Assembly (NCBI RefSeq): GCF_963921235.1
Contig: NC_086097.1
Location: 120,096,001-120,160,000, forward strand
Length of the DNA: 64,000 bases
Source of the DNA: Mobula hypostoma
Taxonomy: Eukaryota
Direction of reading: 5' to 3'
The translations under genes and the position numbers were made by a program. The number at the start of each line of letters is the position of its first letter. The first letter of the stretch is position 1. The notes beneath the pieces were generated by a model, which was not told where the DNA came from, ran no database searches, and was given only the letters and a program-made list of their open reading frames with translations. Below are positions 2,745 through 39,019 of this stretch, in pieces.

Positions 2745-4090
2745 CGGTAGCCAGGAGGCACACAGCACATCTTTAAGAAAAAAGCCAAGATAAACATTCT
2801 ATTTAAACATGCATCCCAGCATCCAGGACATCTTCAAGAAGCGATGTCTCAAAAAGGCGGCATCCATCATTAAGGGCACCCATCACCCAGCACTCTGACT
2901 GGCCAACAGGTAGATTTTGGCTGATGAAGATATCTGATCAAGTGAATGCTTCAGTTCCAGGCAGAAGGCACATAGACCCACTTATAAAACATTGAAGAGT
3001 TTGAAGCGTGGAATGGACTAAAAATGTGCTCTAGTACACATTGGAGAGATTACCTCTCTCTTAAGTGTTACTTCGTGTGCCCAGCACAACTATGCTATTG
3101 TGCAGACACAGTTTTTACTTGTAGCACTATGACAGAATAAGGAACAAGTTGAGAAATGGGAAAAGAAGGTGGCAAAACGTTGTGGTAATATTGAGCAAGA
3201 TCTCTCGACATGCTGTCAATCTCTTCTTTAAATACACCCAATGACATGGCCTCCACAGCTATCTGAGGCAATGAATTCCATAGATTCTCCATCCTTGCCA
3301 ATGTTGAACATGAAGTAGATGGAATTCAGGTACAGACTGGCAAGTGGAAGCAAATATAGCCCAGCTTCAGAATCCAGCACTTAGGGTTATGTGGCAGCAT
3401 TCTGGTTTAAGAATCAAGAGTAAGGTTGCATAAGGGGGAAGCATTAAGGGAGAGATTCACATTGATGCCATTCACAATTCATATAAAGTCATCTGTAGCT
3501 CTAAGGGTTTGTGATATTAAAGGGCATTGGGGCATGCAAATTATTTGTGAGCATATTTTTATTTTCAGTGATCTTTCAGTGACTGTCCATGGACCTTCTA
3601 AATCATTGAGCTGCTGATTAATATGACTCTCTGCTGTAGTGGCCTCTGGTGTGTAATCTTTTTCCAGGGGAAAGGAGAAAGATGTAAATTTGTGGTTTGC
3701 AATGTGTCTTATTGATAAGCCTGCCCTGGATCCCCAGAACGTGTGAGGTATGATGAGAGCAATGGGAGGGGTGTAAAGATATGTGTGATATACAGTGTAA
3801 GTGCTGGGGAGATGACTGTTCATTGTAATAATTTTTGGAGTGTTCATTTAATGGGATTTGAGATTTAGAACACAGAACAATACAGCACAGTACAGGTCCT
3901 TCAGCCCACAATGTTATGTCAGCCTTTCAACCTCATCTAAGACTAGTCTAAACTTTCTGTCATACATAGCCAGCCACTCTCTGTCATCCGTATCCTAATT
4001 CATCGGGAATTGAGCAGTGCCTGGTCATAAAGACCGTATTTGCAGTCTACGGTGTAGCCTGGGTTTACATAAAGCATTATTATATGGAAT

Positions 4091-4645: not shown

Positions 4646-5109
4646 AAATGGAAATAAAAAAGCATAAGTGACAAAAGACAACAAAGTGACCAGAAAGGTA
4701 AGATTTTACTGAACATCAAACGTAAACACAAAACGATGACAAATCCTTCATAATATTTGATTTAATGGGTATAGTCAACAGCACAAGGACAGCCACTCTG
4801 TAAAAGGTAGTCAAGGTGATTCATTTGAAGAAGCAGTCACTTCCCTTAACCCTGACACTAAAGTGCTGCGATTCACAAGCTTCATTCACAACACCTGCTG
4901 GATAACACCTCACACTCATGTCAAACTTAAATAAACCAACAAAATATTCTGAAATGCTGAGACTCAAGTTTCATTATCAATGGACCAATATGATATAACC
5001 TTCCTGAATGACAGAATTTCTTAGGTTTTCTGAATGTTGTTCTACTGACCATTCTTAAAGTTTTGGTGTCCATATTTAAGAGGGGGGAGCTTTACAGATG
5101 TTAAAAGAG

Positions 5110-5445
5110 GTGGAACAGTAGTGTAGTGGTTAGTATAACTCGTTACAGTGTGAGCTGTATGTTGAGTGTTCAATTCTCTCTGCTGTCTGTAAGGAGTCCA
5201 TACATTCTCACCATGACCGCATGGATTTCCTCCAGATGCTCCAAGTTCCTCCCATAATCCAAAGATGTATGGGTTAAGGTTAGCAGATTCTGAGCATGCT
5301 ATATTAGTGCCGTAAGCATGGCAGCATTTTCAGGCTGTCCCCAGCCCATCTTCGGACTGTGCTGGTTGTTGATGCAAATAGCGCATTTCGCTGTATGTTT
5401 TTTTGTTTTGACGTACATGTGACAAACAAAGCTAATCTTTATCTA
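5110..5445 (+). mobile_element. tRNA-derived V-SINE (HE1-like)
   Basis: tRNA-like head (TAGTGTAGTGGTTAG...GTTCAATTC) and V-domain-like GGATTTCCTCCAGATGCTCC.AGTTCCTCCCA.AATCCAAAGA; tail GTGACAAACAAAGCTAATCT. Confidence 0.75.
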
Positions 5446-5870
5446 TAATAAGACCCTATGTAAACCTAAATTACACCAGCGACTGTAACTATAGCTTTTT
5501 GACCAGAAACTGCTCAAATCCTGAAAAAAACGTAGCAAGAAGAATCGTAGCAAGGAGAGTAGCAAAAGCAGAATTTTCTTCCAGAGCTGATGGCTTCAAT
5601 GGTCAATCTACAAGAAAGGTTGACAAGCCTCCCAATAAGTCATGTCATTGTTAGGTTAGGTCGTCTGTGTGATATGTCTCAGAAAATAGCACTGGCTACA
5701 TGCTTTAATATCTATAATAAGATGGAATACAAATTTCTGGTATAAGATATATCAAAGCAAAAAAAAGAAAGTTAAACAACAGGAATTCTGCAGATGCTGG
5801 AAATTCAAGCAACACACATAAAAGTTGCTGGTGAACACAGCAGGCCAGGCAGCATCTCTAGGAAGAGGTG

Positions 5871-5912
5871 CAGTCGACGTTTCAGGCCGAGACCCTTCGT
5901 CAGGACTAACTG
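5871..5912 (-). ncRNA. Minimal type I hammerhead ribozyme motif
   Basis: Minus strand reads CAGUUAGUC-CUGACGA-AGGGUCUCGGCCU-GAAA-CG-UC-GACUG: intact core, stem I AGUC/GACU, stem II AGG/CCU, self-complementary ACGU at stem III. Confidence 0.85.
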
Positions 5913-5933
5913 AAGGAAGAGTCACTCTTCCTT

Positions 5934-5975
5934 CAGTTAGTCCTGACGAAGGGTCTCAGCCTGAAACGTCGACTG
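5934..5975 (+). ncRNA. Minimal type I hammerhead ribozyme motif
   Basis: CTGACGA 5943-5949, GAAA 5963-5966, predicted GUC cleavage after 5970, stem I AGTC/GACT. Confidence 0.85.
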
Positions 5976-7389
5976 CACCTCTTCCTAGAGATGCTGCCTG
6001 GCCTGCTGCGTTCACCAAAAAGAAAGTTAATCCATCTTACGGGTGCAAATGTTAGTAAAAGAACATTTTTGTCCAGAATTACCCAGCTTCTCCATTGGGC
6101 TTTCAACCTAGTTGACATATTAAATAAAAGGCTCCATGTCTTTTTATGCCCTAGTGAAAGATCCCACAGCATTAATCAAAGAAGAGCGAATCCTTTCCAT
6201 ATTGTTCTTATAACTGTTTCTATAAAAGGATTATCTCGTTATTTCCCTCAATGGACCACATTATTTAAATTGACTGCTACATTTCCTTACTTTGCAACCA
6301 TGACTACATTTCAAAATTAGGATATTGACTGTGACATGCTTTGTAATAATCTCTGGTTGTCAAAGGCATTTTATAAATTCATTTGAGAGACCACTCTATG
6401 AAATAGAAACACTGCGGTCTAAGGTAGAATTTCCTGTGTACGTGTGTTTTCCTTCAGAATTCATGTTTTAATGAAATGCTGGTATATCTCCTTTCTCTTA
6501 CATATGCTTTGTTCAAAACTCCTTTTGCTACATTTCAGCAGGAATCATAAAGACTGCAGTTACAGTCAAAGGTATAATTAGGGTTTACATAAGGCATTAT
6601 AGCTTTTATCAACTACAAAGTTCTCCAAGTTAAATATAGACACAGTGAAATATGCTTTTGACACAATCTTCTGAAATTTTTAGAAATGCTTTGGTTAGTA
6701 GTGCAATAGTCAGAAATTTTAAATTTAGTCATTCAGGGAAGTTATATCATATTGTCTATTGGCAGAAGAAGTTAAGTATAACAGCTACAAAATACTTTGT
6801 AGGTTCATTTCAGATTGACATGAACAAGAGGTTGTACAGTGGATGTTGTGAATTAATCTTTTGAACCACCACACTTGAGTGTCAGGGTCAAGATAAGTCA
6901 ATAGTTCTTCATACGTCCTGTGCCTTATCTTGCATCATCTACTTCCCATCACGACCAGGATCAGACTCTATCCATTCAAGACTCATGCCTATTATTTATA
7001 TGCTTCACCACGCCCTCAAAAACCTATCTCTGCTATAAACCTCACACCCATAAATCACAGCTTCACTGCATGGCCAGTTTTTCAACCATAGTAGATGTAT
7101 TATTCAAGACACATTGCAAAATATTTGCTGGTACACTTTCATCTCCAGTAATACAAACCGGTGCATAATTGTGGAGAGCAGCAACTGAGAAACAAAACTT
7201 TCTTCATCCACTTCAACTCTTTAAGGAGACAGTGCTGGCTACCATTGGAAAACCATCACTGACACCATGGTCAAAAGAGAATCTGAACAGATGGAAACTG
7301 AAGATATACTTTCATGTAATTGTCTTTCTCATAGACCACTTCCCACTCATGCAATTCTAACAGACTAAATAGGTGCAGATGATCTAAGA

Positions 7390-9639: not shown

Positions 9640-11900
9640 TACCCCGGTGGTTGATAAATAGTCAGTAAATGAGGGCTTCTATTGGTCTGAATTGACTGTG
9701 AATATTGTATCCTAGCTGTCTAGATATGCAAGCCTGGGCAGTACGATATGGAGGGCAAGCTGTTGCCCATGTAACAAGCTCCCTCTCTCCATGTAACTGA
9801 TGAACCCAAAGAAATGGCAGAGACCGATACAGTTTGGTACCAGCAGTTTTGCAGGGGTCGCCAGTCAGTAATGAGCTAAGTAATGAGCTGCCTTAGGGAC
9901 TCCAGATCAGGGTTTACTGCCAAAGCCTTCCCTATGAGCGGGTACAGTCGCAAAACAGTGGAGGTTTGAGATCAGTGTTTTCCTTCTCCTTGATGAGCTG
10001 CCAACCACAGCTCATGAACCCCATCTGCCCGAAGCAACTGAGGAGGACATAAATAATCTTCCAGAAATAGTAGGGACAGAGGGTCCAGTGAGATGGAGGA
10101 ACTGAGGGAAATACATGTTAGTAGGGAAGTGGTGTTAGGTAAATTGAAGGGATTAAAGGCAGATAAATCCCCAGGGCCAGATGGTCTGCATCCCAGAGTG
10201 CTTAAGGAAGTAGCCCAAGAAATAGTGGATGCATTAGTGATAATTTTTCAAAACTCTTTAGATTCTGGACTAGTTCCTGAGGATTGGAGGGTGGCTAATG
10301 TAACCCCACTTTTTAAAAAAGGAGGGAGAGAGAAACCGGGGAATTATAGACCGGTTAGCCTAACATCGGTGGTGGGGAAAATGCTAGAGTCAGTTATCAA
10401 AGATGTGATAACAGTACATTTGGAAAGCGGTGAAATCATCGGACAAAGTCCGCATGGATTTGTGAAAGGAAAATCATGTCTGACGAAACTCATGGAATTT
10501 TTTGAGGATGTAACTAGTAGAGTGGATAGGGGAGAACCAGTGGATGTGGTATATTTGTATTTCCAAAAGGCTTTTGACAAGGTCCCACATAGGAGATTAG
10601 TGTGCAAACTTAAAGCATATGGCATTGATGTGGATAGAGAATTGGTTGGCAGACAGGAAGCAAAGAGTGGGAATAAACGGGACCTTTACAGAATGGCAGG
10701 CAGTGACTAGTGGGGTACCGCAAGGCTCAGTGCTGGGACCCCTGTTGTTTACAATATATATTAATGACTTAGATAAGGGAATTAAATGCAGCATCTCCAA
10801 GTTTGCGGATGACACGAAGCTGGGCGGCAGTGTTAGTTGTGAAAGGATGCTAAGAGGAAGCAGAGTGACTTGGATAGATTAGGTGAGTGGGCAAATTCAT
10901 GGCAGATGCAATTTAATGTGGATAAATGTGAGGTTATCCACTTTGCTGGCAAAAACAGGAAAACAGATTATTATCCAGATTATTATCTGAATGGTGGCCG
11001 ATTAGGAAAAGAGGAGGTGCAACGAGACCTGGGTGTCATTATACACCAGTCATTGAAAGTGGACATGCAGATACAGCAGGCGGTGAAAAAGGCGAATGGT
11101 ATGCTGGCGTTCATAGCAAGAGGATTCGAGTACAGGAGCAGGGAGGTACTACTGCAGTTGTACAAGGCCTTAGTGAGACCATACCTGGAGTATTGTGTGC
11201 AGTTTTGGTCCCCTAATCTGAGGAAAGACATCCTTGCCATAGAGGGAGTACAAAGAAGGTTCACCAGATTGATTCCTGGGATGGCAGGACTTTCATATGA
11301 TGAAAGACTGGATCAACTAGGCTTATACTCATTGGAATTTAGAAGATTGAGGGGGGATCTTATTGAAATGTATAAAATCCTAAAGGGATTGGACAGGCTA
11401 GATGCAGGAAGATTGTTCCCGATGTTGGGGACGTCCAGAATGAGGGGTCACAGTTTGAGGATAAAGGGGAAGCCTTTTAGGACCGAGATTAGGAAAAACT
11501 TCTTCACACAGGGAGTGGTGAATCTGTGGAATTCTCTGCCACAGGAAACAGTTGAGGCCAGTTCATTGGCTATATTTAAGAGGGAGTTAGATATGGCCCT
11601 TGTGGCTAAAGGGATCAGGGGGTATGGAGGGAAGGCTGGTACAGGGTTATGAGTGGGATGATCAGCTACGATCATACTGAATGGCGGTGCAGGCGCGAAG
11701 GGCCGAATGGCCTACTTCTGCACCTATTTTCTATGTTTCTATGTTTTAAGGCATCAATAGCCCAACCTTGCACCTTTTCGCATCAGTAGAAACAGTTCTG
11801 CTGGGCATAGTAGCTAAGCCACACATGAATGTCAGGAACTGGATTTAGTTATCAGAGGGTGTTTGAGGCACACGCTATTGGGATAATTTAATAGATGGTG
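9640..11900 (-). mobile_element. Non-coding repeat, probably RTE-related, split by the CR1 at 10040-11746
   Basis: 9720-9870 is homologous to the body of the SINE at 56362-56678 (GTTGCCCATG..CAAG..CCC.CTCTCCA...ATACAG.TTGG.ACCA); flanks appear to rejoin across the CR1; RTE assignment is inference. Confidence 0.5.
10040..11746 (+). mobile_element. CR1 LINE, 5'-truncated, RT domain with few frameshifts
   Basis: ORFs 10093-10710, 10619-10882, 10870-11652 ([24 protein letters not shown]); (CTATGTTT) tail. Confidence 0.95.
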
Positions 11901-16730: not shown

Positions 16731-17134
16731 ATTTTGAACTTCTTTATTTTGCACCTATTTTACAATTTTCCATGAACCTCAATCTGATATCCACAAAATC
16801 TGCAAACCCTGGACCACAGCGTAATTCCGTCTGGAATGCTATTCAGTACCTCCTTTTCAATCAGAGGTCTCTTTTTATCCCAGCTCTTTGCTTTCAGACC
16901 TTCAACCATTTTCCGATTTACATGGACACATACTTCATAGTTCTCTATGCCTTTATGTTTGCCGTCACTCTCATTTTGTTCCTAATTGAATGATTTTTAA
17001 AGAAGAATAGAGAAAAAAAACATTTTCATAGTGGTGCAAACAACAGGAATTCTGCAGATGGTGGAAATTCAAGCAACACACATCAAAGTTGCTGGTGAAC
17101 GCAGCAGGCCAGGCAGCATCTCTAGAAAGAGGTA

Positions 17135-17176
17135 CAGTCGACGTTTCAGGCCGAGACTCTTCGTCAGGACTAACTG
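17135..17176 (-). ncRNA. Minimal hammerhead ribozyme motif
   Basis: CUGACGA and GAAACGUC core intact; one mismatch in stem II (AGA/CCU). Confidence 0.8.
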
Positions 17177-18179
17177 AAGGAAGAGAGAGTAAGGGATTTG
17201 AAAGTGGGAGGGGGAGGGGGAGATCCAAAATGATAGGAGAAGACAGGAGGGGGAGGGATGGAGCCAAGAGCTGGACAGGTGATAGGCAAAGGGGATACGA
17301 GAGGATCATGGGACAGGAGGTCCGGGAAGAAAGATGGGGGGGGGGGAGCCCAGAGGATGGGCAAGGGGTATAGTCAGAGGGACAGAGGGAGAAAAAGGAG
17401 AGTGAGAGAAAGAATGTGTGTATAAAAATAAATAACAGATGAGGTACGAGGGGAAGGTGGGGCATTAGCGGAAGTTACAGAAGTCAATGTTCATGCCATC
17501 AGGTTGGAGGCTACCCAGACGGAATATAAGGTGTTGTTCCTCCAATCTGAGTGTGGCTTCATCTTTACAGTAGAGGAGGCCGTGGATAGACATGTCAGAA
17601 TGGGAATGGGATGTGGGAATAAAATGTGTGGCCACTGGGAGATCCTGCTTTCTCTGGTGGAAAGACCGTTTCGCTGAACACCTACGCTCCGTCTGCCAGA
17701 GAAAGCAGGATCTCCTAGTGGCCACACATTTTAATTCCACATCCCATTCCCATTCTGACATGTCTATCCACGGCCTCCTCTACTGTAAAGATGAAGCCAC
17801 ACTCAGATTGGAGGAACAACATCTTATATTCCGTCTGGGTAGACTCCAACCTGATGGCATGAACATTGACTTCTCTAACTTCCGCTAATGCCCCACCTCC
17901 CCCTCGTACCCCATCCGTTATTTATTTATATACACACATTCTTTCTCTCTCTCTCTCTCTCCTTTTTCTCCATCTATCCCTCTGACTATACCCCTTGCCC
18001 ATCCTCTGGTTCCCCCCCTTGTCTTTCTCCCTGGACCTCCTGTCCCATGATCCTCTCATATCCCCTTTGCCAGTCACCTGTCCAGCTCTTGGTTCCATCC
18101 CTCCCCCTCCTGTCTTCTCCTATCATTTTGGATCTCCCCCTCCCCCTTCCACTTTCAAATCTCTTACTAGCTCTTCCTT

Positions 18180-18221
18180 CAGTTAGTCCCGACGAAGGGT
18201 CTCGGCCTGAAACATCGACTG
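18180..18221 (+). ncRNA. Mutated hammerhead ribozyme motif (probably inactive)
   Basis: Core reads CCGACGA instead of CUGACGA and GAAACAUC instead of GAAACGUC. Confidence 0.7.
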
Positions 18222-20264
18222 TACCTCTTCCTAGAGGTGCTGCCTGGCCTGCTGCATTCACCAGCAACTTTGATGTGATTTTCATAGTGGTCTTCCTTTA
18301 TCTGGTTTTGTGATATCTTCAAACAACCCTCTAATGCGGCTCAAGTTGGAACTACCTTTCAGAACTGCATGTTAACCGGGTTTGATCAGCTCATGTTTCT
18401 CTAAATCCTCAAAAGTTTAATCCTTTACTGTAAATGTTAGCCTCTTACCAACAACAATAATTTTTTTTTGGTTTGTGATTTTTGTGTCACCCTTTTCTCA
18501 AGAGAATGTCTTAATTTCTTTCACACAAATTGTTTCATTCTGTAAAAAACAGATTCAAATCCCTGCTATTGCTTGCTCTAGAGTTGTGACATTTAAGTCA
18601 GCAAATTGCCCATCTTAGTTTTGAATAGAGGCTTTGGTGAAGTTTTGCTTTGACTTAGAAAACGTAGGAACCCATTAAAAAAGAAGACAGTCAAACTCCA
18701 ATGTGCAAAAAAGAACCAGCTGTGCAAGTAGTAAAACGTAGGTAAATAACATTCAGAACTAAAGTTTGTGAATATGAGTTCACAGCCACGAAGCCTGTCA
18801 TCACTTCAACTGGTCCGGAAGCCCATTAGTTGCAGACCATAATCTCACCAAGCAGTGAGCTGAACACCTTGCCTCCAGCCCTGATATCATGACCTTTTCA
18901 ATCTGGCCCAGTACTTGAATCGGCCAAACAGTGTCTCATTTCTTGTTCTCATACTGGGGCCCTGTCGCTTTGTGTGTTCTCGGGACCCCTCCCACCCCAC
19001 CATAAATCCGCCTCACTACGGCCACTTCACCATGGATCTGACGCTTTGAATCAGTTCCAAGTCCATTCCAGAAGTAGCCAAACATTGGCTCACTCCTTGT
19101 TTTCAGGCCCAGGTGCGGCGCCTCAGTTTGGCTCATCCACACCATGTGTGCAACCGTCTCTCACCTTTGAGACTTCAGCTCACACTGCAAAAATGCCAGG
19201 TGATACGGGCAGCTCAAAAGCTCAACTCTGAAAGGGAAGTTACAGGCTACTGATGGCAGTGATCCTTGTCCAGAAAAAATGTGATTAATGGAGTAGTTGG
19301 TTGATTTGTTCACTGTGAGCAAGGCACTTTGTTTCACTGGCTTGAATTTAATGCTCGACAATTAACTGGTTCTTGTGTCTCCTGCACATATGGACACCTG
19401 GATTATAGAATGAAATCTGCTGAGCTATTTTTAAATGGTTATTTTGCTGCAGTAGTGCTTTGGTGGGATATTCATATGATTTGGGGATTAAAATGGAGCA
19501 GTCTCCTTGACATACGTAATACCTCTGTGGATTGCCACGTGTTCTCTAGCATCCTGACTCAGAGTTACATATCTCCCCTTTTTTTTTTCTTCCTAAATAT
19601 GTTAGTCAAGACAATCAAGGGATCAGTCACTGTTAGAATTACTGTGCAAAGACCATTAGTTCTGATCTTGAATACATGGTGAAGGAATTATGGGAATGGG
19701 ATAAATTTATTATGATGATACTGGAATGAGGCTACAGCTAAAAGGAGAGAGTGAAGAATATTAAGACATTTATCAGATGAATCAGTAACATTAAGAAATC
19801 AAATAGACCTCTTTATTGTAGTCATATTATGCATGACGTTTGATAGATTAAATTAGAAAAGGTTATTTCCACAGACAAAAATAGGTTGAGAATTATACCA
19901 TAAAAAATTATGAATGTCACCCAAAAATCATACGAATTTGCGAAGGATCTTTTTAGCAGTCATTTAGAAAACAGCAGTGAAAGCTGAGTCCAGTGATACT
20001 TTAAAGAAGAAGTGGGCAATGAAGAAAGGTGTGAGTGGAAATACAAATGCAGTGGGGCTACTACTGTTATTCAAAGCATATTAAAAATTAGCTCATCAGT
20101 CAAAACCGTTCCAGTATGTTTTATGAAATCAATAGCTTACAGCTAACTAAACAAATATATAGATATAGTAATTTAATTTTACAAACATTCTTTTTTGATA
20201 TAAACTCTGATAACTCCTCATTACACAATTTCATTTTGTATGTGATATTCAAATACTAGGCAGT

Positions 20265-24095: not shown

Positions 24096-27000
24096 TATAA
24101 ACTACATACTTTCCAAAAAATATATTTCAGAATTAGGTCTGAATTCTGAATTAGGTAATTCCTTGTCAGAAAATTAAACAAAGATTGAGTTATAATAGTG
24201 TTTATTTATATTTGTTTTTATTTAGATATACTACATGGTAACAGGCCCTTCCGGCCCAGTGAGCCCTCTCTGCCCAGTTAAACCCCTGTGACCAATTAAC
24301 CTACTCATCCATATGTTTTGGAACGAGGGAGCAAACTGGAGCATCCGGAGGAAACCTATGCGGTCATGGGTAAAACATACAAACTCCTTACGGTGTCACA
24401 TGACCGGCAACAATGAATATAGAAATGAGTCAGGTTTAAAAAAAACATTTATTAAACTCTGCTCAAAATTAGTAACAAGATAAACAAACGAAAACCTTAA
24501 CTAGAAGTAAACTGCTATACAGCCATTTAACAAACCTCCAAACTCAGTACTAGTTCTTAAAGTAGTAAATGCGAACACAGTCTTAAAGTGGTAAATTTTA
24601 AAGTCCATGATAGTTACACAGTCAATTAGGAGAGACTTTCCTGAACTAAAGAATTTCTCAAAGATATGACGTTACTGCTGATCCCAGGAGGAACCTGCCT
24701 TGTCCGCAGGGTTCACAACGACAGAAATAAAATAGTTTAAAGGCACCGATCTTTTTCCTCTGTAGATGAGGTACTGCACAACTTTTTCTGCTACTTTTAG
24801 CAGAGGTTACCTCATGCAGATCACTCGTACTTGAACGAATTCAATAATGGTCGATCCACTTCAAAACTGCCGAACGACTCCTTCAGGTTCCTGTCTTCAC
24901 TCTCCAATATTACTGAAAAGGTACATCAACAAATCTGGCAGCTATTGGTGAAACTGCTGGCCCAACACTTCTGTACCTTACAATAGATAGTAAAACTCCG
25001 TTTTAAAACTATACTGCGTCATGAGATTAATACGCAACGTAGTGGAGTATCTGACTGACGATTTGAATTGAAGACTAACTGCATCACCAGTGGTCTACAC
25101 TTATATACCCGGTGAGAACAGGTCATCATGTGACCTCACATCAGCGGGAAAATTACATCATGAGACCTCTGCAAGACCATTACATCATCCTCATAAGACA
25201 ATCACAAGATATCCATTAGTAACACCTCCCTCCAAAAAAAAATGGTCTTTTTAGGAGCGAAATTTTAACAATTAACTATCTACAAAAAAAAACAAATGTA
25301 TAAAATTTACAACATACACAGTATACACAGTATCATCATATAGCATTTTGCAAGCTAATATACAGTAGGAGTGTTACAAAGATTAAAATATCACTCCATA
25401 AAAAATTACATTGCACATTTAACATCTAGATAGACAATCAGCGATCACATTATCTTTACCTTTAACATGAGTTATCAAAATATTATACTCCTGTAACATC
25501 AAACTCCAATTTAGCAATCTTCTATTTTTGTTTTTCATCTTACACAAAAACATTAACAGATTATGATTGGTGTAAACGATGAGTGGTTTCTGAGTACACT
25601 TCAAACATACACTTCAAAATGTTGTAAAGCCAAAACAAGAGATAATAATTCCTTTTCTATAGTTGAATAATTTCTTTGATGCGTATTAAATTTCTTAGAA
25701 AAATAAGCTACCGGATGATCAACTTCATCACCCTCATCCCTTTGAAGTAACAGTGCTCCTGTAGCTTCATCACTAGCATCTACAGCTACTGAAAATGTTT
25801 TTTCAAAGTCAGGGGATTTGAGCACAGGCTGACTGCATATTATAGTTTTCAGTTTATCAAAGGCCTCTTGACAAGGCTCTGTCCAAACAAACTTTCTATT
25901 TTTCTTCAAGAGGTGAGTTAATGGAAGAACAATGTTCACAAAATTCTCACAAAATTTTCTGTTATATCCTACCATACCCAAGAATCTTCTGAGAGTTTTC
26001 TTACCAGTTGGAGTGGGTACTTCTAAAATTGCCTGAGTTTTTACCTGAACAGGAGCTAATTTTCCTTGACCCACAACATAACCAAAGTAGGTTACCATGG
26101 CATGACCAAATTCACTTTTAGCTAAGTTAATAGTTAAGTTAGCTTTTCAAAATCTCTCAAATAGTTTCTCCACCACAGTAATATGTGATTTTCAAGTATT
26201 ATTTCCTGTAACTAAGTCATTAATTTAGGTATCTGTATCTTTTAACCCATGAATCACATTATTAATCATCCTCTGGAAAGTACCTGGTGCAGTCATCATC
26301 CCAAATAGAAGAACACATTATATTCATATAACCCAGATGGGATTACAAATGCAGAAATTTCTCTACCTCTATCCATCAATGGAACACACCAATACTCTTT
26401 TAACAAATCAATCTTTGTAAAGAACTTTGCTTGTCTAACTTTATCCATCTACCCTAGGAATTGGATATGCATTAGTTTTTGTCACAGCATTCACCTTCCT
26501 GTAATCTGTACAAAACCTAATATTATTGTCTGTCTTACGCACCATAACACACGGTGAACTCCAATTAAATTAGAATGTCTAATAATATCATTCTCTAACA
26601 TATACTTAATTTCTTTTTCAGCAAGTTCACATTTTTCCCTGCTCATCCGAAACGGATGTTTTTTTTATGGATTTTCATCTCCAACATCTACATCATGTGT
26701 AGCTACGGTGGTTCTTCTAGGAGCATCTGGAAATAATTCCATATATTTAAAAATTAACTGTTTCATCTGCTCTCTCTCTCCGCTCTGGCTGTAAAAAAGC
26801 TAATTTCTCATCAATATTTTCCAGAATTGTTGAATTTGGTAACCTGGCTGAAATATTGTTGGGTTTAAAATGAGTTTCAGATGAATCATCCATTAAGTTT
26901 TTAGAAAGATCAGGCTCATTATTGACCACAACAGTCATAGCAGCGGCCTTTGTCTCATAATACAGTTTTATCATATTTATATGACACAGCTATGTTGGCT

Positions 27001-27417
27001 TTCTTCGATCTGGAGTTATTATCACATAATCCACATCATTTACTTTAGATTTAATCTCATAAGGACCATGCAATTTAGCTTGTAATGGGTTCATTTGCAC
27101 TGGGAAAAGAACCAACACCTTACCTCCAGGCTCAAATGACCTCATTCTAGCTTCCTTATCATACCAAGTTTTCATCTTCTCCTGAGCCAATTTTAAATTT
27201 TCCTTGGCCAAGCTATAAGCTTTATGTAATCCTTCCTTGAATTTCAAAACATAATCCAGCAAATTAATGTGTACCTCTTTATTAATCCATTGTTCTTTCA
27301 ACAAGGCCAAAGGTACTCGAACTCTATGCCCAAACACAAGTTCAAAAGGACTAAAACCTAATGATTCCCGTACTGCCTCTCGTACTGCAAAAAGTTGTAA
27401 ATGTACACCTTCGTCCC

Positions 27418-28890
27418 TGTCATGGTCCAGTTTGTGAAGTCCGAATTCCAGTTCACGGTCTGGTCCGTGGACTCAGGACTCCAGGTCTTCCAGCTGTCCC
27501 TTGTTTGAGTTAATCATAGGCACCTGATTCCCATCTTTGGGCTTGCAATATAAGTAGCCTTGGGATTGAGTGTGGGCTGCTGGTTTGTCTTATCAGTCCC
27601 CTTGGAGCAACCTGCTGATGGAAGGCTAGTGAAACCACTTGTGATCTCTAGGCCTGGTTGAAGGACAACTTCTTCATGGAGCCTTGTTGCCACTAGTTGG
27701 AGTAGTCTTTGCAGTATGGATTCGGTTGTTTCCCAGGCCAGCTGAGTGGCTGCCAGCCACTCTGAGCTAGGTAGGGATCTGGCTGTTTCTGTAGCCAGCT
27801 GAGGTTGCTGGCCGAACTGAGACATGGAGCTACCCTGGAGCTGAGATGGAACTGTCTGTTGTTCTTTGGTGTTTGTCTCTTCTTGTCCTCGCCTCTGTGG
27901 GGTCAGCCAGGCTGTTTTGCCGTTGCCCTGCAGGTGGTCCTGTCTCGTCTTGTCCTCGCCTCTGTGAGGTAAGTCAGGCTGTTTTGCTGTTGCCCTGCAA
28001 GGGGATCTGTCTTGTCTTGTCCTTGCCTCTATTGGGTAAATCTGGCTGTTCTGCTGTCACCTGATGGACAGACCTGTCCCACCTTGGTGTGGAGATGAAG
28101 TTGAGTCCCAGCTTGTCTTAGGATAAGTCCTGGCTCTATGTCTATGTTCTGTCTTGTCTCATGTTAGTGTTGTGTTAAAGATGAGTCCCAGCTTGTCAAA
28201 GTGTAAGTCTCGGCTCTATATTAATGTACAGTTCCCAGTCTGTCTCCGAGTCCAGCCTCCGAGTTATCAGCCTCCGCAAGCTCAGGCTCCAAGAACCCAA
28301 TCCTCGAGGATCCTACAGCCAAGCTCCAAGAACCCAAGCCTCGAAGATCCCGCAGCCAAGCTCTAAGAACCCAAGCCTCAAGGATCCCGCAGCCAAGCTC
28401 CAAGAACCCAAGCCTCGAGGATCCCGCAGCCAAGCTCCAAGAACCCAAGCCTCGAGGATCCCGCAGCCAAGCTCCAAGAACCCAAGCCTCAGGGATCCTG
28501 CAGTCCGAGCCATTCCTCAAGACCCAAGACCCCAGCCTCAAGCCAAGCCTCAAGACCCAAGACCCCAGCCTCAAACTAAGCCTCAAGCCAAGCCTCAAGA
28601 CCCAAGACCTCAGCTTCAAGCCATGTCATGTCCTTGCCTGGTTCTGGGGTCCGAGCCCGAGGCAAGACCCAGGTTCTGGGTCCTTGTCCAGTCTCAGGCT
28701 TGGAGTCGAAGCCTTGCCCGCTAGTCCATGGTTCTAGTCCTGGTCCTGCTTTCCTTAGCCCAAGTCTGCATTCTTGTCCCTGCTCCTGGTCTGAATCCTG
28801 TCACGTCCCTACTCTAGTCAAGTCCTGTTCCTTGTACTTCAGTGTCTGTGTCTTGCATTTGCGTCTGTTCCCAGCACCCCCACTGCGACA
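27418..28890. mobile_element. 1473-bp solo LTR or non-coding LTR element inserted in the integrase of element 1
   Basis: TGTCA...GCGACA termini; 5-bp TSD GTCCC/ATCCC (uninterrupted paralogues read TCATCCCA at ~44600 and ~61515). Confidence 0.85.
28286..28621. repeat. Minisatellites within the LTR: six 37-bp units then a CAAGACCCAAGACCCCAGCCT-type array
   Basis: AAGAACCCAA recurs at 28291, 28328, 28365, 28402, 28439, 28476. Confidence 0.95.
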
Positions 28891-31800
28891 ATCCCAGTCC
28901 TTTTCATTTTCTGTACAATACGTCCTAATCATATTTTTGATGGTAGGATGGAATCTCTCTAAGGCTCCATGTGATTCTGGATGATATGCAGATGACGTAA
29001 TCTGTTTTGCTCCCAGTTTATAAACTATCTGCTGAAACAATCCAGACATAAAATTACTACCATGATCCGATTGTATTTCCTTAGCCAACCCAAAATAAGT
29101 AAAGTATTTTATAAGAGCCTTTGTCACAGTTTTTGGCTGTTATATTCCTAAGAGGTATTGCTTCTGGAAACGTAGAAGCTGTGCACCTAATGGTCAGCAA
29201 ATATTGATATCCAGTTTTAGTTTTTGGCAATGGGCCTACACAAATCTATAATAATTTTGGAAAACGGTTCACCAAATGCTGGAATCGGTCGCAGTGGGGC
29301 CACTGGAGTAACTTGATTAGGTTTACCCACAATTTGACACGTATGACACGTCCTGCAAAAAGTCACCACATCCTTTCTGAAACTAGGCCAGTAAAAATGT
29401 TTAAAAACCTTGTTCATAGTTTTCTTTTCACCTAGATGACCACCCAAAGGCATACTATGAGCCATAGTTAAAATTTCACATGGATAAACTTTAGGAACTA
29501 CTAACTGGTGATTATCTTCCCATTCCTCACTTGCAGGAATTGTAAGTGATCTCCACTTTCTCATTAATACTCCCTTTTCAAAATAATATCCTTCTGAATT
29601 TCACTATCTGGAAGAGCTTGTTCATTTAATTTAACTACCTCAGGATCTCTACCCTGTTCTGCTATCATCTCCTTCCGAGACAAAGATAAATCTTCATGGT
29701 CAGACTTACTACCAAAATCGTGATCAAATAATGAAGGTAAGAAAGTTTCCGACACATCCTCAAAATTCGCATGCTGAGTTGAACAGTCAATGGTAACAAC
29801 CACGTCCTTCACATCAGTCTTTTTAGCCATAGCTCTTGTTACAACACAGGAAGAACCTGTGTTAGAATCCCTTTGTGGTTGCTCAGAATTTGAATTTATT
29901 GTCAAATGCACTTCAGGAAAAACTAGTCCACCTGCTAAGTCATTCCCTAACAATAGAAAAACGGCATTCACGGTTAAACTGGGTTGTAGTCCTACTTTAA
30001 CAAGCCCTGTATCTAACCCTGACCTTAAATTTACTCTATGCAAATGTACTGGCATAAGGGCACTCCCAACTCCTCTTATATAGTTTACCTCATCAATGTC
30101 AGACTCATCACTAAACTTTAGAATACCGTCTAACATTAGTGATTGAGAAGCTCCAGTATCTCTGAGTATTTTTATTAATACTGGATTGGATCCCTCTTTC
30201 AAGGACACAAATCCTTCGGTTATAAAATGTTCATAACCCCTCTTAACTTGGTCGGACTCTAACAAAGCCTCATTTGCATTTATTGAACTCTGTGGATTTA
30301 CAGGTGTTTCAATATGCTGCGCACAAGCATCTGGGATGGCTTCCTTCTCTTTCTTTTATCAATCAAAAACAGTTAGCTATTACATGTCCAGGTTTCTTAC
30401 AATAATTACAAATAGGACCAAATTGTCTTTCCTTCACGTCTCCCTTCATCTGTACCTTTCTCACTAACTTCAGATTTAATTTCTGGTTTACCTTGACTCT
30501 CTGTGCTAATTTTCCTTTGAAAAGTTCTACCTGGAGAAAATTCATTCTTATGAATTAAAGCATACTCATCAGCTAATTTAGCAGTCTCCTGCAATGTAGC
30601 AATATTCCTTTCATTTAAGTATGTCCTCACTTCAACAGGGATGCTCCTTTTAAATTCCTCCAGTAAAATCAACTCTTTTAATTTATTATACTCCCCATTC
30701 ACATTTTTTAGAGGAAACCCACCTCTCAAAACACACAGATGTCTAGTAGGCAAATTCCACGTAAGTTTTTTCCACAGATTTCTTCAAATTTCTGAATCTT
30801 TCTCTATAAGGTTCTGGAACCAACTCATACGCTTTCAATATATGCTGTTTCATAATATCATAATCCAGTGCTTGCTCAGCATTTAAAGCTGTATAAACTT
30901 GTTGTGCCTTGCCTCTAATTACACTTTGCAACATCACTGGCCATCGCTCTTTCGGCCACTCTAAACTCAGAGCAACAATTTTGAAATGTTGGAAATATTT
31001 GTCCATTCCCACTTCTGCTTCATTAAATGGAGGAGCCAAAATAATCTCTGGACTAGCAACAAACTGTTTCCTGGAACCAGAAGACTGATTTTCCATCCTT
31101 AACTTCTCCATCTCTAGCTCAAATTCCCTCTTTTGATTTGCCTCTCGTTCAGACATTTCCACTTTAAATCATTCAAACTTTATCTGTTCAAGATGGAATT
31201 GCATTTCCAGTGTACTCATTGGAAACCTCCATAACACCTCATCATCAAACTTCCCCAAACTTATATAATACTCCGCGATTTTTCTCTGAATTACGGGCTT
31301 TGTTGTAACCTTCGTAACTCCCCTTCATAATACCTTTAAGATTCAACCTCCTAGCAATCTCTGATACAACAGTTTTCCTTGCCTTTGCTAGAAACTTTGT
31401 GTCAGGCGAATCCACGAAGTCGTCAATATTCATTGCTGCCGAATACCACGCACACACCAATCAAACAAAAGAATTGGGTATTTCTCTTTTCCAAATCCGG
31501 TTGATAAATAAACAAGCATTTAAGCTCAAAATCTGAACAATCCTAAGAGCCCCCAAATTATGTCACGTGACCAGCAACAATGAATATAGAAATGAGTCAG
31601 GTTTTATAAACAAATAAACATTTATTGAACTCTGCTCAAAATTAGTAACAAGATAAACAAACAAAAACCTTAACTGGAAGTAAACTGCGATGCAGCCATT
31701 TAACAAACCACCAAACTCAGTATTAGTTCTTAAAGCGGTGAATGTGAACACAGTCTTAAAGTGGTAAATTTTAAAAGCCAAGATATTTATGCAGTCAATT

Positions 31801-33906: not shown

Positions 33907-36180
33907 AATAGACAATAGGTGCAGGAGTAGGCCATTCGGCCCTTTGAGCCAGCACCTCCATTCACTGTGATCATGGCTGATCATCCACAATCAGTATCCA
34001 GTTCCTGCCTTATCCCCATAACCTTTGATTCCGCTATCTTTAAGAGCTCTATCCAACTCTTTCTTGAAAGCATCCAGAGACTTGGCCTCCACAGCCTTCT
34101 GGGGCAGAGCATTCCATACATCCACTACTCTCTGGGTAAAAAAGTTTTTCCTCCACTCCGTTCTAAATGACCTACCCCTTATTCTTAAACTGTGGCCTCT
34201 GGTTCTGGACTCACCCATCAGCGGGAACATGCTTCCTGCCTCCAGCGTGTCCAATCCCTTAATAATCTTATATGTTTCAATAAGATCCCCTCTCAGCCTT
34301 CTAAATTCCAGAGTATACAAGCCCAGTCGCTCCAATCTTTCAACATATGACAGTCCCGCCATCCCGGGAATTAACCTTGTGAACCTACGCTGCACTCCCG
34401 CAATAGCAAGAATGTCCTTCCTCAAATTTGGAGACCAAAACTGCACACAGTACTCCAGGTGTGGTCTCACCAGGGCCCTGTACAGCTGCAGAAGGACCTC
34501 TTTGCTCTTATACTCAAATCCCCTTGTTATGAAGGCCAGCATGCCATTAGCTTTCTTCACTGCCTGCTGTACTTGCATGCTTGCTTTCAGTGACCGATGT
34601 ACAAGAACACCTAGATCTCGTTGTGCTTCCCCTTTTCCTAACTTGACTCCATTTAGATAATAATCTGCCTTCCCGTTCTTACCACCAAAGTGGATAACCT
34701 CACATTTATCCACATTAAACTGTATCTGCCATGCATCTGCCCACTCACCCAGCCTATCCAAATCACCCTGCATTCTCATAACATCCTCCTCACATTTCAC
34801 ACTGCCACCCAGCTTTGTGTCATCGACAAATTTGCTAACGTTACTTTTAATTCCCTCATCTAAATCATTAATATATATTGTAAACAGCTGTGGTCCCAGC
34901 ACTGAACCCTGCGGTTCCCCACTTGTCACCTGCTGCCATTCCGAAAGGGACCCATTAATCGCTACTCTTTGTTTTCTGTCAGCCAGCCAATTTCCAATCC
35001 ATGTCAGTACACTGCCCCCAATACCATATGCCCTAATTTTGCCCACTAATCTCCTATGTGGGGCTTTATCAAAGGCTTTCTGAAAGTCCAGGTACAGTAC
35101 ATCCACTGGCTCTCCCTTGTCCATTTTCATAGTTACATCCTCAAAAAGTTCCAGAACGTTAGTCAAGCACAATTTCCCCTTCATAAATCCGTGCTGACTT
35201 GGACCAATCCTGTTACTGCTATCCAGATGTATCGTAATTTCATCTTTTATAATTGACTCCAGCATCTTTCCCACCACCGACGTCAGGCTAACCGGTCTAT
35301 AATACCCTGTTTTCTTTCTTCCTCCCTTCTTGAAGAGAGGGACAGCATCAGCCACCCTCCAATCCACAGGAACTGATCCTGAATCAATAGAACATTGGAA
35401 AATGATTACCAATGCGTCCACGATTTCTAAAGCCACCCCCTTAAGTACCCTGGGATGCAGACCATCAGGTCCCAGGGACTTATCAGCTTTCAGACCCAAC
35501 AGCCTATCCAACACCATTTCCTGGCCTAATATAAATTTCCTTCAATTCATCCATTATCCTCGGTCCTTTGGCCACTATTACATCTGGGAGATTGTTTGTG
35601 TCTTCCCTCGTGAAGACAGATCCAAAGTACCTGTTCAATTCCTCTGCCATTTCCTTGTTCCCCATAATAAATTCTCCCGTTTCTGTCTTCAAGGGCCCAA
35701 TTTTGGTCTCAACTATTTTTTTCCTTTTCACATACCGAAAGAAGCTTTTACTATCCTCCTTTATATTCTTGGCTAGTTTACCTGCATATCTCATTTTTTC
35801 TATGCGTATTGCCTTTTTAGTTACCTTCTGTTGCTCTTTAAAAGTTTCCCAATCCTCCGGCTTCCCACCCGTCTTTGCTATGTTATACTTCTTCTCTTTT
35901 ATTTTTTACTGTCCATTACTTCCCTTGTCAACCACGGCCTCCTCTTACTCCCCTTAGGATCTTTCTTCCTCTTTAGAATGAACTGATCCTGCACCTTCTG
36001 CATTATTCCCAGAAACACTTGCCATTGCTGTTCCACTGTCATCCCTGCTCGGGTATTGTTCCATTGAACTTTGGCCAGCTCCTCCCTCATAGCACCATAG
36101 TTCCCTTTATTCAACTGTAATACTGACACTTCTGAGTTTCCCTTCTCCCTCTCAAATTGTAGATTAAAACTTATCATATT
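33907..36180 (-). mobile_element. Young CR1 LINE, 5' end cut at the endonuclease C-terminus
   Basis: 508-aa ORF 33991-35517 with all RT motifs (FVDD in place of FADD), upstream ORFs 35504-35794 and 35899-36177; tail at 33907. Confidence 0.97.
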
Positions 36181-39019
36181 ACATAGAACATAGAATAGTA
36201 CAGCACAGTACAGGCCCTTCGGCCCACAATGTTGTGCCGACCCTCAAACCCTGCCTCCCATATAAGCCCTTACCTTAAATTCCTCCATATACCTGTCTCG
36301 TAGTCTCTTAAACTTCACTAGTGTATCTGCCTCCACCACTGACTCAGGCAGTGCATTCCACGCACCAACCACTCTCTGAGTGAAAAACCTTCCTCTAATA
36401 TCCCCCTCGAACTTCCCACCCCTTACCTTAAAGCCATGTCTTCTTGTATTGAGCAGTGGTGCCCTGGGGAATAGGTGCTGGCTATCCACTCTATCTATTC
36501 CTCTTATTATCTTGTACACCTCTATCTTGTCTCCTCGCATCCTCCTTCTCTCCAAAGAGTAAAGCCCTAGCTCCCTTAATCTCTGATCATAATGCGTACT
36601 TTCTAAACCAGGCAGCATCCTGGTAAATGTACCCTTTTCCAATGCTTCCACATCCTTCCTATAGTGAGGTGACCAGAACTGGACACAGTACTCCAAGTGT
36701 GGCCTAACCAGAGTTTTATAGAGCTGCATCATTACATCGCGACTCTTAAACTCTATCCCTCGACAATTTATAAGCTAACACCCCATAAGCTTTCTTAACT
36801 ACCCTATCCATCTGTGAGGCAACTTTCAGGGATCTGTGGACATGTACCCCGAGATCCCTCCGGTCCTCCACACTACCAAGTATCCTGCCATTTACTTTGT
36901 ACTCTGCCTTGGAGTTTGTCCTTCCAAAGTGTACCACCTCACACTTCTCTGGGTTGAACTCCATCTGCCACTTCTCAGCCCACTTCTGCAATCTATCAAT
37001 ATCTCTCTGCAATCTTTGACAATCCTCTACACTATCTACAACACCACCAACCTTTGTGTCGTCTGCAAACTTGCCAACCCACCCTTCTACCCCAACATCC
37101 AGGTCGTTAATAAAAATCACGAAAAGTAGAGGTCCCAGAACAGATCCTTGTGGGACACCAGTAGTCACAATCCTCCAATCTGAATGTACTCCCTCCACCA
37201 CCACCCTCTGCCTTCTGCAGTCAAGCCAATTCTGAATCCACCTGGCCAAACTTCCCTGGATCCCATGCCTTCTAACTTTCTGAATAAGCCTACCGTGTGG
37301 AACCTTGTCAAATGCCTTACCAAAATCCATATAGATCACATCCACTGCACTACCCTCATCTATATGCCTGGTCACCTCCTCAAAGAACTCTATCAGACTT
37401 GTTCGACACCATCTGCCCTTCACAAAGCCATGCTGACTGTCCCTGATCAGACCATGATTCTCTAAATGCCTATAGATCCTATCTCTAAGAATCTTTTCCA
37501 ACAGCTTTCCCACCACAGATGTAAGACTCACTGGTCCATAATTACCCAGACTATCCCTACTACCTTTTTTGAACAAGGGGACAACATTCGCCTCCCTCCA
37601 ATCCTCTGGTACCATTCCCGTGGACAACGAGAACATAAAGATCCTAGCCAGAGGCTCAGCAATCTCTTCTCTCGCCTCGTGGAGCAGCCTGGGGAATATT
37701 CGGTCAGGCCCCGGGGACTTATCTGTCCTAATGTATTTTAACAACTCCAACACCTCCACTCCCTTAATATCAACATGCTCCAGAACATCAACCTCACTCA
37801 TATTGTCCTCACCATCATCAAGTTCCCTCTCATTGGTGAATACCGAAGAGAAGTATTCATTGAGGACCTCGCTCACTTCCACAGCCTCCAGGCACATCTT
37901 CCTACCTTTATCTCTAATCGGTCCTACCTTCACTTCTGTCATCCTTTTTTTCTTCACATAATTGAAGAATGCCTTGGGGTTTTCCTTTACCCTACTTGCC
38001 AAGGCCTTCTCACGCCCCCTTCTTGCTATTCTCAGCCCCTTCTTAAGCTCCTTTCTTGCTTCCCTATATTCCTTAATAGACCCATCTGATCCTTGCTTCC
38101 TAAACCTCATATATGCTGCCTTCTTCCACCTGACTAGATTTTCCACCTCACTTGTCACCCATGGTTCCTTCACCCTACCATTCTTTATCTTCCTCACCGG
38201 GACAAATTTATCCCTAACATCCTGCAAGAGATCCCTAAACATCGACCACATGTCCATAGTACATTCCCCTGCAAAAACATCATCCCATTTCACACCCGCA
38301 AGTTCTAGCCTTATAGCCTCATAATTTGCCTTTCCCCAATTAAAAATTTTCCTGTGCTCTCTGATTCTATCCTTTTCCATGATAATGCTAAAGGCCAGGG
38401 AGCGGTGGTCACTGTCCCCCAGATGCTCACCCACTGAAAGATCTGTGACCTGACCCAGTTCATTACCTAGTACCAGATCTAGTATGGCATTCCCCCGGTC
38501 GGCCTGTCCACATACTGTGACAGGAATCCATCCTGGACACACTTAACAAACTCTGCCCCATCTAATCCCTTGGAACTAATCAGGTGCCAATCAATATTAG
38601 GGAAGTTAAAGTCACCCATGATAACAACCCTGTAATTTTTGCATCTTTCCAAAATCTGCCTCCCAATCTGCTCCTCTGTATCTCTGCTGCTACCAGGGGG
38701 CCTATAGGATTCCCTCAATAGAGTAACTGCTCCCTTCCTGTTCCTGACTTCCACCCAAATTGACTCAAAAGAGGATCCTGCTACATTACCCTCCCTTTCT
38801 GTAGCTGTAATAGTATCCCTGACCAGTAATGCCACCCCTCCTCCCCTTTTTCCACCCACTCTATCCCTTTTAAAGCACTGAAATCCAGGAATATTGAGAA
38901 TCCATTCCTGCCCTGGCGCCAGCCAAGTCTCTGTAATGGCCACTACATCATAATTCCATGTATGTATCCAAGCTCTCAGTTCATCACCTTTGTTCCTGAT
39001 GCTTTTTGCTTTGAGGTAC
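36181..39019 (-). mobile_element. Young CR1 LINE of a second family, nearly complete ORF2
   Basis: Endonuclease (AITETWL, MGDFNFP, SDH), 598-aa ORF 36746-38542 with KFADDTK, C-terminal ORF 36244-36732; (CATAGAA) tail; a few frameshifts. Confidence 0.97.

What the first reader, a model, noticed from the sequence alone, without database searches (positions are those of the whole stretch)
5762..6030. 240-bp fold-back insertion consisting almost only of two opposed hammerhead ribozymes
Seen: a near-perfect 93-bp-arm hairpin with a 1-nt centre, bounded by a 14-bp TSD, with no coding sequence and an intact CUGACGA/GAAAC-GUC core on each strand. Established: Penelope-like elements carry minimal type I hammerheads in their pLTRs, and a self-complementary tetranucleotide at stem III (here ACGU) allows double-hammerhead cleavage. 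Inference: a transcript from either strand holds one ribozyme plus its own antisense, so self-cleavage competes with long dsRNA formation. It could be a one-off extreme 5' inversion, or a distinct non-autonomous ribozyme retroelement.
Basis: partly seen in the sequence, partly recalled or inferred. Interest (0 to 1): 0.75.

Follow-up and report, generated by a model that had tools for sequence, protein, structure and literature searches.

The report
Twin-primed Penelope hairpin with hammerheads
This 241-base DNA hairpin is one of thousands of back-to-back stub insertions of a very abundant Penelope-like jumping gene, a layout already known and not a separate ribozyme element; its sister copies suggest that each was likely made when both cut DNA strands copied the same RNA from two fixed start points and were then joined, which would explain how this poorly understood class inserts.

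Summary
Observation confirmed: 94-nt arms, 1-nt centre, 14-bp TSD, a minimal hammerhead on each strand; a relative's contig shows the empty site. It is the 3' end (pLTR) of a Neptune-type Penelope-like element (PLE), inserted head to head. It is neither a one-off nor a separate family: 5,941 opposed hammerhead pairs lie within 100 nt in this genome, only 17 share this fold point, and those carry 7 subfamily haplotypes with the tail on either arm. Head-to-head pLTRs, one-sided tails and opposed hammerheads are published. The added value is mechanistic: 130 of 132 two-arm copies have exactly one tailed arm, either arm can be the longer, and the arms share subfamily variants (91-97% versus 44-62%). 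This fits priming at both target nicks on one RNA, then end joining (inferred). This copy's fold point may mark a minor capped RNA start (small sample). Both ribozymes are predicted buried: each strand transcribes the antisense arm first, and forcing the fold costs about 68 kcal/mol. The scan reported the same layout and a similar model before, in this and other genomes. Interest 0.35.

The parts
5762..5775 (.). Left copy of the 14-bp target-site duplication (its last two bases also match the element's natural end)
   Evidence: D5; single copy at the empty site in run X11
5776..5922 (-). Tailed arm: last 147 nt of a Neptune-type PLE (pLTR with hammerhead), running to the family's distal end
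   Evidence: positions d=147 to d=1, counted from the 3' terminus
5776..5810 (-). Approximate 'tail': the 30-40 nt between the family's two recurrent 3' ends, present on this arm only
   Evidence: 118 of 132 tail-less arms end at d=26-46; tail concept in PMC8557442 and PMC11167929
5872..5907 (-). Minimal type I hammerhead motif, minus strand; predicted cut between 5876 and 5875
   Evidence: sequence; descriptor features from PMC4209133
5923..5923 (.). Single central base of the fold-back: either the element's own next base on the right arm, or (read on the minus strand) an extra G before the left arm, as a cap would template
   Evidence: not resolved
5924..6016 (+). Tail-less arm: same pLTR segment, d=147 to about d=54, ending about 15-20 nt shorter than most tail-less arms
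5939..5974 (+). Minimal type I hammerhead motif, plus strand; predicted cut after 5970; the G-to-A change at 5958 lies in loop II and leaves the stems intact
   Evidence: sequence
6017..6030 (.). Right copy of the 14-bp target-site duplication
   Evidence: D5
17022..18291 (.). Sister insertion of the same family in the window: same head-to-head layout with arms of about 633 and 654 nt that include the GIY-YIG end of the ORF, tail on the left arm only, 14-bp TSD

Best explanation
This is one insertion of two back-to-back 3' stubs of an abundant Neptune-type Penelope-like retrotransposon, likely made when both nicked strands of the target primed reverse transcription on the same source RNA and the two cDNAs were joined head to head. 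Shown: family identity, TSD and empty site, the one-tailed/one-tail-less layout, variable fold points, and shared subfamily variants between arms. Inferred: the element's GIY-YIG protein, probably a dimer, nicks both strands about 14 nt apart; one 3' end starts at the distal RT site (giving the tail) and the other at the proximal site about 35 nt upstream; both run towards the RNA's 5' end; their ends are joined bluntly, by 1-4 nt microhomology or with short templated inserts; fill-in gives the TSD. Here both cDNAs stopped at the same base (d=147, the A of an initiator-like TCACT), possibly a minor capped RNA start (weak evidence). The hammerheads are passengers copied from uncut RNA and are predicted inactive in this copy, which would give long dsRNA if transcribed.
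For: Parent ORF has RT (YIDD), a CxxxxCxxC linker and GIY-YIG (Pfam RVT_1 E=1.7e-5 and GIY-YIG E=4.3e-4, both under the curated cut-off). Family size: 71,188 exact hits to a 23-mer, 23,732 to the 47-nt hammerhead stretch. Exactly one tailed arm in 130 of 132 pooled two-arm copies and in 35 of 36 in the position-ordered sample. In 35 sampled pairs the tail-less arm is longer by >20 nt in 10 and the tailed arm in 7, so neither is a copy of the other. Arms agree at five subfamily sites in 91-97% versus 44-62% between insertions, but not at two CpG-decay sites (81-82% versus 80-83%), which argues against later gene conversion; within the youngest group 54 of 54 and 46 of 48 agree. Arm starts are more equal than by permutation (7 of 35 within 3 nt, expected 2.6, p=0.007; 5 of 16 long pairs within 25 nt, expected 0.9, p=0.0009). 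TSD of 12-17 bp in 115 of 132. In vitro, an anole PLE cuts and extends both strands, has two RT start sites bounding the tail and is a predicted dimer (PMC11167929).
Against: No intermediate was observed; all mechanistic steps come from end products. 2 of 116 scored insertions have arms that differ at 4 subfamily sites, so two different RNAs are used at least sometimes. Arm concordance could also reflect two RNAs from one active source locus. 43 of 84 sampled insertions are single-armed and need one priming event to fail or be lost. 10 of 132 had no TSD found, and one long 2,750/927 junction occurs twice, 1.4 Mb apart, which independent assembly does not explain. [quoted passage not shown] The capped-start reading rests on 9 single-armed copies, and the central base has an equally good templated reading.
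Confidence: 0.68

Rival explanations
1. Single priming with cDNA snap-back: one cDNA folds back at its 3' end and is copied until about 35 nt from its start, then joins the second strand.
For: Explains near-perfect symmetry as in this copy, arm identity, and the excess of equal-length arms. The 404-copy junction is itself a mini-hairpin.
Against: Requires the tail-less arm never to exceed the tailed arm; it does so by >20 nt in 10 of 35 pairs, by up to about 1,800 nt. At the 404-copy junction the tail lies on either arm (16 versus 12 of 28 scored). Two insertions have arms from different subfamilies. It may still act as the joining step after twin priming.
Confidence: 0.12
2. Self-priming on an antisense transcript makes the head-to-head palindrome before insertion (model in PMC3846280).
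For: Proposed in print for palindromic junctions in rotifer PLEs (passage seen); the genome holds thousands of copies that could give antisense RNA.
Against: Does not predict one tailed and one tail-less arm in 130 of 132, ends at two fixed sense-RNA sites, or long non-palindromic asymmetry. The anole PLE protein uses sense RNA in vitro (PMC11167929).
Confidence: 0.08
3. A distinct non-autonomous fold-back ribozyme element that is copied as a unit from a master hairpin.
For: 17 copies share the fold point within 3 nt, 11 with the identical 1-nt centre. One long junction occurs twice, so re-mobilisation or local copying of a fold-back is not impossible.
Against: 17 is 0.3% of the 5,941 short opposed pairs (different patterns, so the ratio is rough). 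The 16 scored copies fall in 7 haplotypes also found in ordinary copies; the tail sits on either arm (8 versus 3 of 11 scored); centres vary (C/G, GC, GAC, CTC, TTC); tail-less ends vary as in the whole family.
Confidence: 0.04
4. Post-insertion rearrangement (hairpin-forming repair or recombination between two copies) made the palindrome from an ordinary single insertion.
For: Could account for the few copies without TSD or with two tails.
Against: This copy and 122 of 132 two-arm copies have a direct repeat of 10 bp or more enclosing both arms, and the empty site holds one copy of it.
Confidence: 0.03

Closest known systems
Complex insertions of endonuclease-bearing Penelope-like elements: adjacent inverted 5'-truncated copy, one-sided 30-40 bp tail, TSD (Arkhipova et al. 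2013, PMC3846280; Craig et al. 2021, PMC8557442; passages seen)
   Same: Head-to-head pLTRs, tail on one arm only, enclosing TSD, palindrome at the junction.
   Different: Here the whole insertion is reduced to the two pLTR stubs; those papers, in the passages seen, give no counts of tail pairing and propose antisense self-priming or leave the mechanism open.
[quoted passage not shown]
   Same: 4-bp helix I, extra base before helix II, no helix III with palindromic ACGU; that paper already notes dual motifs about 100-700 bp apart on opposite strands.
   Different: Helix II is 4 bp and starts with G-U in this subfamily (G-C in 19 of 245 motifs); the two motifs here are only 31 nt apart.
Poseidon PLE of Anolis carolinensis studied in vitro (Frangieh et al. 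2024, PMC11167929; parts 1-2 of 4 read)
   Same: Two RT start sites bounding the tail, both strands cut and extended, AT-rich targets (TSDs here 66% A+T), uncut RNA as main template.
   Different: Different clade (Neptune-type linker here); that paper does not connect the two start sites to inverted insertions and found no RNA ends at the ribozyme cut, whereas a minority of arms here start at it.
Non-LTR retrozymes (bioRxiv 10.64898/2026.07.22.740005; part 1 of 5 and passages seen)
   Same: Non-coding, PLE-derived, type I hammerhead.
   Different: Retrozymes are head-to-tail tandem repeats with a ribozyme in each unit; this is head-to-head, single, and not copied as a unit.
LINE-1 twin priming
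   Same: Both target 3' ends prime on the RNA, giving an inverted 5' part inside one TSD.
   Different: In L1 the two parts mostly do not overlap; here the arms overlap almost wholly and both start at fixed sites near the 3' end.

Membership tests
EN+ Penelope-like element | Parent ORF with RT and C-terminal GIY-YIG endonuclease | tested here: met
   L062 copy, contiguous with this pLTR: YIDD, GIY-YIG motifs; Pfam hits to both, below curated cut-offs
EN+ Penelope-like element | pLTR bearing a minimal hammerhead | tested here: met
   motif 230-270 nt downstream of the ORF stop, 245 descriptor matches in fetched loci
EN+ Penelope-like element | Inverted 5'-truncated copy, one-sided 30-40 bp tail, TSD | tested here: met
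EN+ Penelope-like element | Full-length partial-tandem copy (pLTR-ORF-pLTR) | tested here: inconclusive
   longest copies fetched are about 3.0 kb and 5'-truncated; short tandem pLTR pieces seen; no full-length copy sought further
Neptune clade | Zn-finger-like motif between RT and EN (PMC8557442; shared with Nematis) | tested here: met
   CxxxxCxxC before the GIY-YIG domain
Neptune clade | Placement in an RT phylogeny | not tested
   no tree built
Minimal type I hammerhead | Core CUGANGA and GAAA, NUH site, helices I and II, palindromic 15.2-16.2 | tested here: met
   both arms; C-G at 15.2-16.2 in 222 of 245 motifs. The family is too uniform for covariation support.
Minimal type I hammerhead | Self-cleavage (as dimer or protein-assisted) | not testable with these tools
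   indirect only: excess of arm starts at the cut-site base; predicted buried in this copy
Non-LTR retrozyme | Head-to-tail tandem units each with a ribozyme | tested here: not met
   single head-to-head pair
Distinct non-autonomous fold-back family | Fixed junction inherited from one master (monophyly, fixed tail side) | tested here: not met
   7 haplotypes in 16 copies, tail on either arm

The most novel reading that the evidence does not exclude
PLE integration is an obligatorily asymmetric twin-priming reaction: one protein dimer holds one RNA, its two RTs start at the two ends of the tail on opposite target strands, both copy the same template without destroying it, and the hairpin scars record that RNA's real 5' ends: a main capped start at the front edge of the hammerhead (d=132), a minor one at this copy's fold point (d=147), and, in a minority, the ribozyme cut (d=100), which would show the minimal hammerhead cleaving in the germ line.
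Probability: 0.45. Interest if true: 0.68.

Novelty: new member of a known kind. Interest (0 to 1): 0.35.

Why it matters
The locus itself is ordinary. The population of its sisters matters because the papers read here call the origin of PLE tandem and inverted structures undefined (PMC8557442) and the one in vitro system stops short of the finished insertion (PMC11167929). The near-perfect rule of one tailed plus one tail-less arm, with either arm the longer and both from one source, gives a concrete prediction that the existing anole system can test. It would also mean that this genome carries thousands of long perfect hairpins as by-products, potential dsRNA and cruciform sources, without any dedicated ribozyme element.

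Tried and rejected
Rfam scan: no hammerhead family reported. A fixed fold point at d=147 as the family's main stop: rejected; starts in the first 100 rows spread over d=141-156 (read by eye), and the main stop is d=132 (3,388 matches) against 1,304 matches, of which 13 of 30 loci were not truncated at all (that pattern let natural upstream sequence through). A master element for the long 2,750/927 junction: only 2 copies genome-wide, no shared flank. Expression: no RNA holder listed; two runs guessed to be RNA hold family pieces but no contig covers the unique flanks; this says nothing about this locus. Presence in organism B: contigs of X5 reach 22 and 25 nt into the element from both flanks, under the 31-letter bridging rule, so only a hint. 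Covariation of the ribozyme stems: the family is too uniform. My first ribozyme fold used a wrong helix II and was redone. Literature searches for a published twin-priming model of PLE inversions found none; the library lacks most subscription papers, and supplements were not read.

Full report
1. Observation. The insert is 5776-6016 (241 bp) between exact 14-bp repeats at 5762-5775 and 6017-6030; the arms 5829-5922 and 5924-6017 are 98% complementary with one base between them. Both mismatches are CpG transitions. The left arm, read on the minus strand, continues 53 nt further. Each strand carries a minimal type I hammerhead (5939-5974 +, 5872-5907 -), together 30% of the insert. A contig of run X11 shows the empty site with one copy of the repeat, and one of X10 agrees; both also lack about 12 nt of the right flank, a separate indel. 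The insertion and its TSD are real.

2. What it is. A second copy in the window (17022-18291) has the same layout with about 640-nt arms that reach into a GIY-YIG-coding end. A 3.0-kb natural copy (L062) links this end to an ORF with RT, a cysteine linker and GIY-YIG: an endonuclease-bearing PLE with the Neptune/Nematis-type linker named in PMC8557442; no tree was built. Positions below are distances d from the family's 3' terminus; this copy is d=147-1 (left) and d=147/148-54 (right). The family is huge: 71,188 exact hits to a 23-mer and 23,732 to the 47-nt ribozyme stretch.

3. Family or accident? Neither. 5,941 places have two opposed ribozyme cores within 100 nt. Seventeen share this fold point within 3 nt, 11 with the same single centre; one other junction has 404 exact copies. 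I fetched the insertions behind 99 of the first 100 hits: 84 insertions, of which 36 are two-arm head-to-head, 43 single-armed (19 tailed, 24 not) and 5 complex (two-arm copies have two chances to be hit, so 36 of 84 is an upper estimate). Fold points range from about 40 to 2,750. Sixteen of the 17 same-point copies were scored (the 17th has three arms): 7 haplotypes at five subfamily sites, tail on either arm (8 versus 3 of the 11 with arm starts 147/149). They are independent recurrences.

4. How it was likely made. In 132 clean two-arm copies pooled (copies at locus edges, with more than two arms or under 84% identity left out), 130 have exactly one arm reaching the terminus; 118 of the 132 other arms end at d=26-46; 115 have a 12-17 bp TSD and 10 none found. 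In 35 position-sampled pairs the tail-less arm is the longer by >20 nt in 10 and the tailed arm in 7, so neither is a DNA copy of the other. The arms share subfamily variants (91-97% versus 44-62% between insertions) but not CpG decay (81-82% versus 80-83%); in the youngest group 54 of 54 and 46 of 48 agree, while 2 of 116 insertions have arms from different subfamilies. Equal arm starts are in excess (p=0.007 and p=0.0009 by permutation). Junctions are blunt, overlap by 1-4 nt or hold short inserts, several copied from nearby sequence. With the in vitro results of PMC11167929 (both strands cut and extended, two RT starts bounding the tail, predicted dimer), the simplest account is twin priming on one RNA, or on two RNAs of one source, followed by end joining. 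This is inferred from end products. Pure snap-back and the antisense self-priming of PMC3846280 fit less well; snap-back may serve as the joining step. I wrote this model down before reading the scan's earlier notes.

5. Why this fold point? Arm starts pile up at d=120-149 (44 of 122 arms; 11-20 per 10 nt against 3-5 on either side). The main stop is d=132, the first base of ribozyme helix I (3,388 matches); d=147 is several times rarer (304 matches, 13 of 30 loci not truncated). d=147 is the A of an initiator-like TCACT, a motif noted in a rotifer pLTR (PMC3846280). Following a lead from earlier notes I looked for a cap-templated G: among 44 single-armed copies with a TSD (of 122), G precedes the start in 7 of 9 at d=132 or 147 against 6 of 35 elsewhere (Fisher p=0.001), and all 5 with untemplated extra bases there end in G against 2 of 16. 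The sample is small and chosen by pattern. In the first 100 rows the preceding base is G in only 40 (by eye), 16 of them explained by the partner arm. The central base of this copy reads as that G on the minus strand, but is also the element's own next base on the plus strand. Unresolved.

6. The ribozymes. They match the minimal descriptor of PMC4209133, which also reports opposed pairs 100-700 bp apart and low activity even as dimers. The 36-nt monomer prefers an inactive fold (-10.0 versus -6.0 kcal/mol); helix probabilities are at most 0.035 in isolated arms and 0.000 in the plus-strand hairpin; forcing the ribozyme raises the energy from -205.2 to -136.8 kcal/mol. In a head-to-head layout each strand transcribes the antisense arm first, so there is no co-transcriptional window. 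Both arms extend 47 nt past the cut site, so the template was uncut. At family level a minority of arms start at the cut-site base: 27 of the first 100 rows (by eye) against 2, 6 and 0 at the next three positions and 5-19 at each of d=101-105; 12 of 28 distinct insertions, 6 without overlap with a partner arm, none at d=97-99. About half are confounded by microhomology, so this is a hint of cleavage in vivo, not proof.

7. Verdict. A new example of a known PLE insertion layout. The layout, the tail and opposed ribozymes are in print; the pairing rule and twin-priming account were not found in searches of a library that lacks most subscription papers (supplements not read). The scan's earlier AI notes report the same on other DNA; they are not independent support. 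Interest 0.35, carried by the testable mechanism and not by the locus.

Noticed in passing
G000:C1:397076-400760 (L156) and G000:C1:1823809-1827427 (L119): Two long fold-back copies share one junction (d=2,750/927) found nowhere else in the genome, 1.4 Mb apart, 97% identical, with unrelated flanks; one has tails on both arms and no TSD. Possibly re-mobilisation or recombination of a fold-back.
   Followed up: partly
window 4826-5051 / 6692-6911 and 5444-5524, 4003-4084, 6545-6600: The insertion sits inside older dispersed repeats arranged as inverted pairs of 72-77% identity.
   Followed up: no
G000, 404 places (L211-L240): A recurrent junction inside the ribozyme core (arm starts 126/131, 3-nt overlap) is far commoner than the finding's; tail on either arm, several haplotypes.
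   Followed up: yes
L062:4872-5200 minus strand: One sense frame stays open through the pLTR, ribozyme and tail; in a partial tandem it could be the start of the ORF, as in the anole element.
   Followed up: no
window 52034-52149: An older, diverged PLE fold-back with a decayed hammerhead, 73-80% identical to the finding's arm.
   Followed up: no
window 6041-6052: About 12 nt of the right flank are absent in contigs of two other organisms (X10, X11).
   Followed up: no
window 10057-11649, 33994-39021, 39861-46403, 25604-30355, 61531-62412: Long stop-free frames resembling LINE RT/endonuclease and LTR-retrotransposon gag/pol pieces (labels from my own knowledge); no host gene was looked for.
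   Followed up: no
rows (e.g. G000:C1:67282329, 81245994): Some copies seem to have lost ribozyme helix II or the whole core by deletion between short repeats.
   Followed up: no
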